A DNA stretch of 273 nucleotides from Escherichia coli (GTDB lineage: Bacteria > Pseudomonadota > Gammaproteobacteria > Enterobacterales > Enterobacteriaceae), in NCBI RefSeq assembly GCF_003334405.1, contig NZ_QOWM01000073.1; one strand, written 5' to 3'. The translations under genes were made by a program, and so were the position numbers. Shown one piece after another: positions 1-273 of this stretch. The notes under the pieces are model-generated. The model saw only the letters and a list, made by a program, of their open reading frames with translations. It searched no databases and was not told the DNA's origin. Position 1 is the first letter of the stretch. Each line of letters begins with the position of its first letter.

Positions 1-88
1 TGCGGTCCGTCTTCTCCGTCAGCCTGCCGTATTCATCGTGGCGGTAGACATAGTGCGCATCCTCCGCGATGCGGTTAACCACCCGTGC
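1..88 (-). CDS. Rhs-family YD-repeat core, downstream segment in a frame offset by one nucleotide from the upstream segment; continues beyond position 1
   Basis: Reverse-complement frame whose codons include plus 74-76 (AAC, Asn) translates to ARVVNRIAEDAHYVYRHDEYGRLTEKTDR. It is closed on its 5' side by TGA (complement of 89-91). The HDEYGRLTEKTD motif is classic Rhs core. No ATG in this frame within the window; a GTG (complement of 80-82) exists but I see no Shine-Dalgarno-like sequence upstream of it, so independent initiation is unsupported. Confidence 0.7.
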
Positions 89-228
89 TCATCATACTGC
101 CACTGCTCTGCCGGGTCGCCGTTCACCGTCCGGTGCGTGATGCGGTCCGACGCATCGTAGTGCCAGAGGGTGATAAGCCCCTCATCTTCACTCTGCGTGA
201 GTTTTCCGGTCAGGTCATAATGATAACG
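11..228 (-). repeat. Tandem YD-repeat coding units (protein-level periodic repeat of the Rhs shell), about 60 nt period
   Basis: Asp codons of the successive YD/HD dipeptides lie at reverse-complement positions 58-60, 118-120, 181-183 and 237-239 (spacings 60, 63 and 56 nt; the last is not a multiple of 3 because of the frame switch). Short DNA-level echoes of the repeat are also visible, e.g. TGCGGTCCG at 1-9 and 141-149, and GATGCGG at 68-74 and 139-145. Confidence 0.6.
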
Positions 229-273
229 TTGCGTCCGCCCGTCAAAGCCGCCCTGCTGTACCAGCCGGTCCAG
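19..273 (-). CDS. Rhs-family YD-repeat core protein, upstream (N-proximal) segment; 5' end lies beyond position 273; Rhs-like through about position 73, then 17 aberrant codons and a TGA stop (complement of 19-21)
   Basis: Reverse-complement frame starting at plus 273 is open for 84 codons and translates to LDRLVQQGGFDGRTQRYHYDLTGKLTQSEDEGLITLWHYDASDRITHRTVNGDPAEQWQYDEHGWLT, then ASRRMRTMSTATMNTAG and stop. Repeated Y/W-x-Y-D-x-x-(G/D)-(R/K)-(L/I)-T motifs at about 20-codon spacing (plus 193-228, 133-168, 73-105) are the YD-repeat signature. Paralog cannot be assigned from 273 nt. Confidence 0.8.
   Translation of the reverse strand: MDRLVQQGGFDGRTQRYHYDLTGKLTQSEDEGLITLWHYDASDRITHRTVNGDPAEQWQYDEHGWLTASRRMRTMSTATMNTAG
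73..80. other. Perfect 8-bp palindrome GGTTAACC (contains an HpaI recognition sequence GTTAAC) located exactly at the point where the Rhs reading frame switches
   Basis: Read directly: plus 73-80 = GGTTAACC, which is its own reverse complement. The last Rhs-like codon of the upstream frame (ACC, Thr, complement of 73-75) and the first Rhs-like codon of the downstream frame (AAC, Asn, complement of 74-76) overlap within it. Confidence 0.9.

What the first reader, a model, noticed from the sequence alone, without database searches (positions are those of the whole stretch)
22..91. Rhs reading frame switches by one nucleotide inside the window
On the minus strand the Rhs-like translation is in one frame from 273 down to about 73 (…QWQYDEHGWLT) and in a frame offset by one nucleotide from 76 down to 1 (NRIAEDAHYVYRHDEYGRLTEKTDR…). 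Each frame hits TGA as soon as it leaves its Rhs-like part: the upstream frame at complement 19-21 after 17 aberrant codons, the downstream frame at complement 89-91. The YD-dipeptide spacing is 60 and 63 nt, then 56 nt across the junction. An intact Rhs core should be one uninterrupted frame, so this is either a genuinely inactivated or rearranged rhs gene, or an error in the sequence.
Basis: seen in the sequence. Interest (0 to 1): 0.7.

Follow-up and report, generated by a model that had tools for sequence, protein, structure and literature searches.

The report
622-bp deletion in dead rhsE gene
The apparent one-base frame switch is the scar of a 622-base deletion inside an already broken E. 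coli Rhs toxin gene, which is an ordinary pseudogene lesion; its left edge, however, sits at a small DNA palindrome where at least four other independent deletions, including the classic K-12 rhsE truncation, also end.

Summary
On the minus strand one Rhs frame runs from 273 to 73. A frame offset by one base runs from 76 to 1. TGA stops lie at complement 19-21 and 89-91.

The lesion is not a one-base indel. The window equals an intact rhsE-type core gene minus 622 bp (3x207+1, about 207 codons). A 5-bp TAACC is present at both breakpoints and one copy is kept (window 73-77). There is no other homology between the breakpoints, so this is neither YD-repeat recombination nor a repeat collapse.

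Among 5,426 complete E. coli genomes the junction occurs only in strain C1 (NZ_CP195942.1). There the gene has also lost its 5' end and vgrG to a Tn3/blaTEM-1 insertion. RefSeq already annotates it as a frameshifted, incomplete pseudogene. As a finding this is ordinary gene decay.

One extra result emerged. The left breakpoint lies at the centre of a perfect 16-bp palindrome, GGGTGGTT|AACCACCC, in the intact gene. Five mapped independent deletions (K-12 type, M37H, C1/window, FORC_081, F829) all have endpoint ranges that include that central bond. They extend leftwards or rightwards by 0.3-4.4 kb. Two control sites show none. This looks like a natural deletion hotspot. Its mechanism is inferred, not shown.

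The parts
78..273 (-). Rhs core segment upstream of the deletion. With the junction it corresponds to residues 665-731 of the intact 1407-aa RHS core protein WP_001547367.1 (L001 6001-6196).
   Evidence: 100% identical to the intact gene; translation; NCBIfam RHS_core and YD repeat matches.
73..77 (-). Deletion junction. One retained copy of the 5-bp direct repeat TAACC, which occurs at both breakpoints in the intact gene (L001 6197-6201 and 6819-6823).
   Evidence: Prefix and suffix identity overlap by 5 nt; 622 bp missing.
1..72 (-). Rhs core segment downstream of the deletion. With the junction it encodes residues 938-962 (NRIAEDAHYVYRHDEYGRLTEKTDR) in a frame offset by one base (L001 6824-6895).
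73..84 (-). Remnant of the 16-bp perfect palindrome GGGTGGTT|AACCACCC of the intact gene. The left arm GGGTGGTT (window 84-77) survives, followed by AACC. The former centre lies between window 77 and 76.
   Evidence: Palindrome verified in L001 6190-6205. Five independent deletions have endpoint ranges that include its central bond.
22..72 (-). 17 out-of-frame codons (ASRRMRTMSTATMNTAG) read by the upstream frame after the junction.
19..21 (-). TGA that ends the upstream frame.
89..94 (-). Two consecutive TGA codons (92-94 and 89-91) that close the downstream frame just upstream of the junction.
80..82 (-). GTG that opens the mechanical 472-aa downstream ORF in strain C1 (L002 8034-9452). That ORF holds the C-terminal core, the Rhs-associated core domain and a DUF6973 tip. 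There is no evidence that it is used.
   Evidence: The exact product is not on record elsewhere.

Best explanation
The window is the scar of a 622-bp internal deletion in the rhsE-locus Rhs core gene of E. coli. Shown: relative to intact alleles, nucleotides 2194-2815 of the 4224-nt coding sequence are missing (about 207 codons plus one base). One copy of a 5-bp direct repeat TAACC remains at the junction. The residual single base puts the downstream Rhs sequence in a different frame, so the upstream frame runs 17 junk codons into a TGA. The only complete genome with this junction is strain C1. There the same gene has also lost vgrG and its first 875 nt to a Tn3/blaTEM-1/ISKpn26 insertion, so it is a non-functional relic and the deletion is neutral decay. 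Inferred: the deletion is an illegitimate event, either microhomology-guided joining or a strand switch, that started at the centre of a 16-bp perfect palindrome (GGGTGGTT|AACCACCC). The left side was preserved up to the centre, 622 bp to the right were lost, and the ends joined where TAACC recurs. The same central bond is compatible with the endpoint of at least four other independent deletions in this gene. My confidence is 0.85 that the deletion is real and 0.6 that the palindrome started it.
For: The window matches intact genes at 100% identity in two pieces spanning 895 bp. Base-level mapping gives 201 nt plus 77 nt with a 5-nt overlap and 622 nt missing. The NCBIfam RHS_core profile is covered at positions 297-736 by the upstream ORF and 941-1261 by the downstream ORF, so about 204 positions are absent; the intact protein covers 1-1261 at 2767 bits. 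There is no homology around the breakpoints: 24% identity in register and a best local match of 11 nt. The junction is contiguous in 1 of 5,426 genomes, and the window is an exact substring of L002 7843-8115. RefSeq flags the gene as a pseudogene, and the Tn3 truncation is visible there. The flanks align to the intact allele with no gaps over 7.4 kb, so the assembly is not prone to indel errors here. For the hotspot, the palindrome was verified. Endpoint ranges for K-12 (6195|6196 to 6198|6199), FORC_081 (6197|6198 to 6198|6199), F829 (6196|6197 to 6198|6199), M37H (6197|6198 to 6198|6199) and C1 (6196|6197 to 6201|6202) all include bond 6197|6198. Asymmetric probes find 5 of 2,083 genomes broken just right of the centre, and 413 of 2,646 just left of it, 410 of them K-type. 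Two control sites give 0 of 3,502 and 0 of 1,086.
Against: Only one assembly carries the junction, and no reads were available. None of 60 metagenomic contigs with the left flank shows it, and no protein with the junction-specific tail is on record. Independent confirmation of this particular allele is therefore lacking. For the hotspot inference: the palindrome's single-strand hairpin is only modestly stable (-6.6 kcal/mol, z = -2.0). About 10% of codon-shuffled versions of the gene contain a palindrome as long. My probes can only detect alleles in which one flank is preserved up to the centre. Two left-only and about two right-only genomes were not identified. The first control site is partly masked by paralogs. 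Known SbcCD-dependent palindrome breakage involves much longer palindromes.
Confidence: 0.85

Rival explanations
1. Assembly artefact: the 622 bp are present in the real chromosome of the source strain and were dropped by the assembler or during polishing.
For: The junction is a singleton among 5,426 genomes and is absent from 60 metagenomic contigs. rhs genes are repeat-rich and are often misassembled.
Against: Collapse errors need extended near-identical repeats, and here only 5 bp are shared. The surrounding 7.4 kb has no indels relative to an intact allele. Comparable deletions at the same site exist in the exhaustively verified K-12 genome and in three other assemblies from different sources.
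Confidence: 0.08
2. Single-base sequencing error or a genuine 1-nt indel in an otherwise intact Rhs core.
For: The two frames differ by exactly one base.
Against: The two Rhs parts are separated by 622 bp and about 207 residues in every intact homologue. Adding or removing one base would produce a fusion that no Rhs protein has.
Confidence: 0.005
3. Unequal homologous recombination or slippage between two YD repeat units of the core. Such an event would delete a whole number of repeats.
For: The YD-type spacing across the junction (56 nt) is close to the normal 60-63 nt. Another deletion in FORC_081 does use a 12-nt imperfect repeat.
Against: The breakpoints are not in register. The left one follows GWLT at the end of a repeat, and the right one lies inside WPDNRI. 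Identity in register is 24%, the deletion is not a multiple of 3, and shared sequence is limited to TAACC.
Confidence: 0.03
4. Functional split or recoded gene: a programmed ribosomal frameshift, or an internally initiated C-terminal Rhs fragment (an orphan-like toxin module with its ydcD partner) expressed from the GTG at window 80-82.
For: A 472-aa ORF with the Rhs-associated core domain and a DUF6973 tip starts at a GTG at the junction, and it is followed by an intact ydcD. Orphan rhs fragments can be functional in Salmonella (PMC7043789).
Against: The arrangement is a singleton with no conservation. About 207 core residues are missing, so frameshifting would not give a normal shell. The delivery part and vgrG are gone. 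The exact product is not on record anywhere else. No slippery site or ribosome-binding site was identified.
Confidence: 0.03

Closest known systems
E. coli K-12 rhsE pseudogene (b1456)
   Same: Same chromosomal locus (yncG-yncH ... ydcD-yncO-ISAs1-ydcC-pptA), same Rhs lineage, and inactivated by deletion. Its deletion endpoint falls on the same palindrome centre as the window's left breakpoint. It is recognised as a pseudogene in the literature (PMC4786092).
   Different: K-12 lost 4.43 kb to the left (vgrG plus the first ~2.19 kb of the core) with TTA microhomology, and the allele is present in 410 genomes. The window's allele lost 622 bp to the right, is a singleton, and is additionally truncated by Tn3.
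Rhs pseudogenes, relics and orphan (dissociated) C-terminal tips (Jackson et al. 2009, PMC2935791; Poole et al. 2011, PMC3150448; PMC7043789)
   Same: A 5'-truncated rhs fragment that retains the C-terminal core end, a variable tip and the downstream small gene. Frameshifts and premature stops in such fragments are described as common.
   Different: Orphan tips arise by C-terminal displacement and start near the 3' end of the core. Here the lesion is an internal, out-of-frame deletion in the middle of the YD shell plus a transposon truncation.
Illegitimate deletion between short direct repeats, and palindrome-associated deletion or breakage hotspots (own knowledge: Albertini et al. 1982 on lacI; Glickman and Ripley 1984; SbcCD palindrome cleavage in PMC4245961 and PMC3315005; deletogenic slippage in PMC4948707)
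   Same: Short direct repeat at both ends with one copy retained, and an endpoint at a perfect palindrome. Endpoints recur at the same site in independent lineages.
   Different: The palindrome is only 16 bp, whereas SbcCD work used palindromes of hundreds of bp. Microhomology is 1-5 nt in the five mapped events. Deletions extend in either direction from the centre. No enzyme dependence was tested.
Programmed ribosomal frameshifting (for example IS1 insAB', dnaX, prfB)
   Same: Two overlapping frames that both encode parts of one protein family.
   Different: There is no conservation of the frame change and no slippery motif, and homologues show that 207 codons are missing at the switch.

Membership tests
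RHS element core protein (NCBIfam NF041261) / Rhs polymorphic toxin | YD repeats (TIGR01643 / PF05593) | tested here: met
   TIGR01643 E = 9e-52 on the upstream ORF and 2.7e-4 on the downstream ORF. YD/HD motifs are at window 219, 159, 96 and 40.
RHS element core protein (NCBIfam NF041261) / Rhs polymorphic toxin | Full-length match to the RHS_core profile above the curated cut-off (2000 bits) in one uninterrupted ORF | tested here: not met
   The fragments score 932 bits (profile 297-736) and 715 bits (941-1261). Profile positions 1-296 and 737-940 are absent. The intact allele scores 2767 bits over 1-1261. This is a relic of a family member, not an intact one.
RHS element core protein (NCBIfam NF041261) / Rhs polymorphic toxin | Rhs-associated core domain (TIGR03696 / PF03527) followed by a variable C-terminal tip and a small downstream partner gene | tested here: met
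   TIGR03696 E = 1e-24, PF03527 E = 6e-17 and a DUF6973 tip in the downstream ORF. ydcD (NF050020) is intact. All of these lie outside the window, in L002.
RHS element core protein (NCBIfam NF041261) / Rhs polymorphic toxin | Linkage to vgrG and an N-terminal delivery region | tested here: not met
   In strain C1, vgrG and the first 875 nt of rhs are replaced by Tn3-family sequences. They are present in the intact locus L001.
Microhomology-flanked (illegitimate) deletion | Short direct repeat at both breakpoints in the parental sequence, one copy left at the junction, and no extended homology | tested here: met
   TAACC at L001 6197-6201 and 6819-6823 with one copy in the window (73-77). Identity in register is 24%.
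Single-nucleotide frameshift (mutation or sequencing error) | Collinear with intact homologues except for one inserted or deleted base | tested here: not met
   622 nt are missing.
Programmed ribosomal frameshift | The frame change is conserved among homologues at a slippery site | tested here: not met
   The junction occurs in 1 of 5,426 genomes, and homologues are a single frame.
Palindrome-associated deletion hotspot | Independent rearrangements share an endpoint at the palindrome, in excess over control sites | tested here: met
   Five mapped independent deletions have endpoint ranges that include bond 6197|6198. Broken-only genomes number 5 of 2,083 and 413 of 2,646 at the palindrome, against 0 of 3,502 and 0 of 1,086 at controls. 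The sample is small and the test was post hoc.
Palindrome-associated deletion hotspot | Dependence on hairpin or cruciform formation, or on a nuclease (SbcCD or a GTTAAC-specific endonuclease) | not testable with these tools
   Indirect only. The hairpin is -6.6 kcal/mol with z = -2.0. The other GTTAAC site in the gene, which is not part of a longer palindrome, shows no broken alleles.

The most novel reading that the evidence does not exclude
The 16-bp perfect palindrome GGGTGGTT|AACCACCC inside the rhsE-type core is a natural chromosomal fragile site. Breakage or replication arrest at its exact centre starts one-sided deletions in either direction, which rejoin at microhomologies of a few bases. 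These events have repeatedly and independently inactivated this T6SS effector gene. They include the event that created the textbook K-12 rhsE pseudogene and the one seen in this window. I found no published description of this.
Probability: 0.6. Interest if true: 0.45.

Novelty: new member of a known kind. Interest (0 to 1): 0.3.

Why it matters
The flagged feature itself has little importance. It is one more decayed Rhs gene, already marked as a pseudogene in RefSeq. The main lesson is methodological: a one-base frame offset between two homologous stretches can hide a large deletion. The breakpoint hotspot could matter more. A short, naturally occurring palindrome whose exact centre is the endpoint of five or more independent deletions in wild and laboratory E. 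coli would be a convenient natural system. It could be used to study how short palindromes cause illegitimate deletions in vivo, and it would explain the origin of the K-12 rhsE truncation and the recurrent loss of this T6SS effector.

Tried and rejected
(1) 81-nt junction probes for the FORC_081 and MSB1_8G alleles were uninformative. Intact genomes are reported as joined two-piece matches when the gap is under 540 nt. I replaced them with 40-nt probes.
(2) An exact-product look-up of the 472-aa downstream ORF found no second carrier of the junction. Neither did a protein search with the junction-specific tail. That search did turn up P0038, a different frameshifting deletion that ends in the same out-of-frame tail.
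(3) A metagenome scan with the left flank found 60 contigs, all intact at the site. A genome-contig scan with the right flank found 2 hits, both intact. Neither adds an allele.
(4) I considered hairpins at both deletion ends. Small inverted repeats lie near the right endpoints of the C1 and FORC_081 deletions, but they fold no better than shuffled sequence (z = -0.03 and -0.8), so I dropped the idea.
(5) I considered GTTAAC as a general restriction-type break site. The only other GTTAAC in the gene (L001 5760) has no broken alleles, and the other mapped endpoints are not at palindromes. This is not supported, though it is not excluded for this one site.
(6) IS-mediated adjacent deletion was rejected. 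No IS end lies at any of the five junctions, and F829 joins to the middle of the ISEc5 transposase gene.
(7) The order of the Tn3 truncation and the 622-bp deletion in C1 could not be determined, because both junctions are singletons.

Full report
OBSERVATION. I read the window on both strands and translated all three minus-strand frames. From window 273 the frame reads ...QWQYDEHGWLT, then 17 aberrant codons (window 72-22), then TGA at complement 19-21. The frame offset by one base reads NRIAEDAHYVYRHDEYGRLTEKTDR from 76 to 2 and is closed upstream by TGA at 89-91 (and another at 92-94). The YD codons start at 219, 159 and 96, and the next H-D starts at 40. That gives spacings of 60, 63 and 56 nt.

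WHAT THE LESION IS. A megablast of the window against 5,426 complete E. coli genomes gave hundreds of 100% matches. Each was in two pieces spanning 895 bp of an annotated 'RHS element core protein'. I used the intact locus of strain 720632 as reference (L001; yncG-yncH-vgrG-rhs-ydcD-yncO-ISAs1-ydcC-pptA, the rhsE locus). Base-level mapping shows that window 273-73 equals L001 6001-6201 and window 77-1 equals L001 6819-6895. The two parts overlap by the 5-nt TAACC, and 622 nt are missing.

In the intact 1407-aa protein the window encodes residues 665-731 and 938-962, and roughly residues 732-937 are deleted. NCBIfam confirms this independently. In the genome that carries the junction, the upstream ORF covers RHS_core profile positions 297-736 and the downstream ORF covers 941-1261. 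The intact protein covers 1-1261.

The breakpoints share nothing beyond TAACC (GGTTAACC against GGATAACC). Identity in register over +/-100 nt is 24%, and the best local match between the flanks is 11 nt. This is therefore not recombination between YD repeats in register, and there is no repeat that an assembler could collapse. The near-normal 56-nt YD spacing is a coincidence.

WHERE IT OCCURS. A junction-spanning probe is contiguous in only one genome, NZ_CP195942.1 (strain C1, wastewater, Panama). The window is an exact substring of it (L002 7843-8115). In C1 the rhs gene is annotated as a pseudogene ('frameshifted; incomplete; missing N-terminus'). vgrG and the first 875 nt of rhs are replaced by Tn3-family sequences carrying blaTEM-1 and ISKpn26. 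The Tn3/rhs junction is also a singleton, so the order of the two lesions is unknown. Apart from the 622-bp gap, 7.4 kb around the junction aligns to the intact allele with only substitutions and no gaps. That argues against an error-prone assembly.

I found no second carrier. The exact downstream ORF product is not on record, and no protein has the junction-specific tail. All 60 metagenomic contigs with the left flank continue with the intact sequence.

FUNCTION. The gene is dead. It has no delivery region and no vgrG, about 207 residues of the YD shell are gone, and it is out of frame. Two mechanical ORFs remain. A 506-aa ORF is fused to transposon sequence and ends in the junk tail. A 472-aa ORF starts at a GTG at window 80-82 and contains the Rhs-associated core domain and a DUF6973 tip, and it is followed by an intact ydcD. 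Nothing indicates that the second ORF is expressed, so I treat an orphan-toxin reading as a low-probability rival.

A RECURRENT BREAKPOINT. The only other alleles in the collection with a deletion between the two probe halves were FORC_081 and MSB1_8G/MSB1_1A. FORC_081 has a 301-nt out-of-frame deletion whose left endpoint is within the same few bases as the window's. MSB1_8G has a 276-nt in-frame deletion whose right endpoint lies 2 nt from the window's.

K-12 MG1655's rhsE pseudogene equals the intact locus minus L001 1767-6195, with TTA microhomology. Its right endpoint therefore falls at the same site. In the intact gene that site is a perfect 16-bp palindrome, GGGTGGTT|AACCACCC (L001 6190-6205). 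It is the longest perfect palindrome in the 12.9-kb locus.

To count alleles I used 42-nt probes placed asymmetrically over the centre. The probe with 28 nt to the left and 14 nt to the right matched 2,083 records, of which 2,078 were intact, leaving five genomes broken just right of the centre. Three of them were identified: C1, FORC_081 and F829. F829 has a 4.15-kb deletion that joins the centre to the middle of the downstream ISEc5 transposase gene, with TA microhomology, and it is a singleton.

The mirror probe matched 2,646 records, of which 2,233 were intact, leaving 413 right-only genomes. Of these, 410 are K-12-type. One more is M37H, which has a 3.44-kb deletion from inside vgrG to the centre with 1-nt microhomology.

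All five mapped endpoint ranges include bond 6197|6198, the exact centre, which is also GTT|AAC. The alleles cannot be derived from one another by simple deletion, because they retain different segments.

The same probe design at two control sites found no broken alleles. The other GTTAAC in the gene gave 0 of 3,502, although that site is partly masked by paralogs. A matched site 150 nt to the right gave 0 of 1,086. Other deletions in this locus (FORC_081's two further deletions, L013, L033, L050, P0038) end elsewhere and not at palindromes.

MECHANISM (inferred). The pattern has three features. One flank is preserved to the centre of a perfect palindrome. Loss on the other side is variable, in either direction. 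Rejoining uses 1-5 nt of microhomology in the five mapped events. This fits a break or replication arrest at the palindrome centre, followed by resection or strand switching and illegitimate joining.

Several caveats apply. My probes can only see alleles that preserve one flank, so the one-sidedness is partly a selection effect. The hairpin is only modestly stable (-6.6 kcal/mol, z = -2.0). About 10% of codon-shuffled genes contain an equally long palindrome. SbcCD-type cleavage has been demonstrated for far longer palindromes (PMC4245961, PMC3315005). The nuclease or polymerase involved was not, and could not be, tested here. Small inverted repeats near the right-hand endpoints are no better than chance.

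COMPARISON WITH WHAT IS KNOWN. Rhs pseudogenes, relics and degenerate fragments with frameshifts are well documented in Enterobacteriaceae (PMC2935791). K-12 rhsE is a recognised pseudogene (PMC4786092). Deletion between short direct repeats and palindrome-associated deletion are classical mutational mechanisms (own knowledge). The window is therefore a new allele of a known kind of lesion. My literature searches found no mention of a shared palindromic breakpoint in rhsE. That absence is weak evidence, because the older Rhs papers are not in the searchable library.

VERDICT. The finding itself is ordinary (interest about 0.15). The recurrent palindrome-centred breakpoint raises the overall score modestly, to 0.3.

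Noticed in passing
Window 73-84; L001 6190-6205: A perfect 16-bp palindrome, GGGTGGTT|AACCACCC, in the intact rhsE-type core is the shared endpoint of five mapped independent deletions. K-12 type and M37H extend leftwards. C1/window, FORC_081 and F829 extend rightwards. Control sites show none. Two left-only and about two right-only genomes remain unidentified.
   Followed up: partly
L004 6391|6392 (NZ_LR890603.1 MSB1_8G; also MSB1_1A): An in-frame 276-nt deletion (L001 6550-6825, 92 codons, no microhomology) leaves a 3948-nt rhs CDS that is annotated as intact. Its right endpoint is 2 nt from the window's right breakpoint. I did not examine whether a shell shortened by 92 residues is functional, or whether this second coincidence of breakpoints means anything.
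   Followed up: no
L003 (NZ_CP029057.1 FORC_081) 5004-6040: The same rhsE relic carries three separate deletions. One removes about 3 kb (vgrG plus the 5' end of rhs). One removes about 372 nt between imperfect 12-nt repeats TACCC(C)GGACGG. One removes 301 nt at the palindrome. This shows stepwise deletional decay of the locus.
   Followed up: partly
P0038 (136-aa E. coli hypothetical protein): Another frameshifting internal deletion, in an rhs core closely similar to this one. It jumps from ...LTGKL into the out-of-frame reading of the region upstream of the window's right segment, and it ends in the identical junk tail ASRRMRTMSTATMNTAG.
   Followed up: no
L002 1-6726 (NZ_CP195942.1 1610768-1617493): A chromosomal Tn3 with blaTEM-1, an ISKpn26 copy and a second partial Tn3-family transposase gene replace vgrG and the 5' end of rhsE in strain C1. 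The Tn3/rhs junction is unique among 5,426 genomes.
   Followed up: partly
L067 (SFDX01000073.1, labelled as an Akkermansia muciniphila MAG): A 3.6-kb contig in an Akkermansia MAG carries an Escherichia-type vgrG/rhs sequence, including the intact palindrome region. This is most likely binning contamination.
   Followed up: no
L033 and L050 (metagenome contigs), L001 coordinates about 2483-2496: Two metagenomic contigs have deletions whose left endpoints fall within about 13 nt of each other inside vgrG. They could share ancestry, reflect another preferred breakpoint, or be assembly chimeras.
   Followed up: no
L066 (E. albertii NBRC 107761); 14 of 60 metagenome loci: The palindrome is imperfect in some lineages. 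E. albertii has GGGTGGCT|AACCACCC, and some E. coli-like contigs have ...AACCACCA. These natural variants could serve as controls for palindrome dependence of the hotspot.
   Followed up: no
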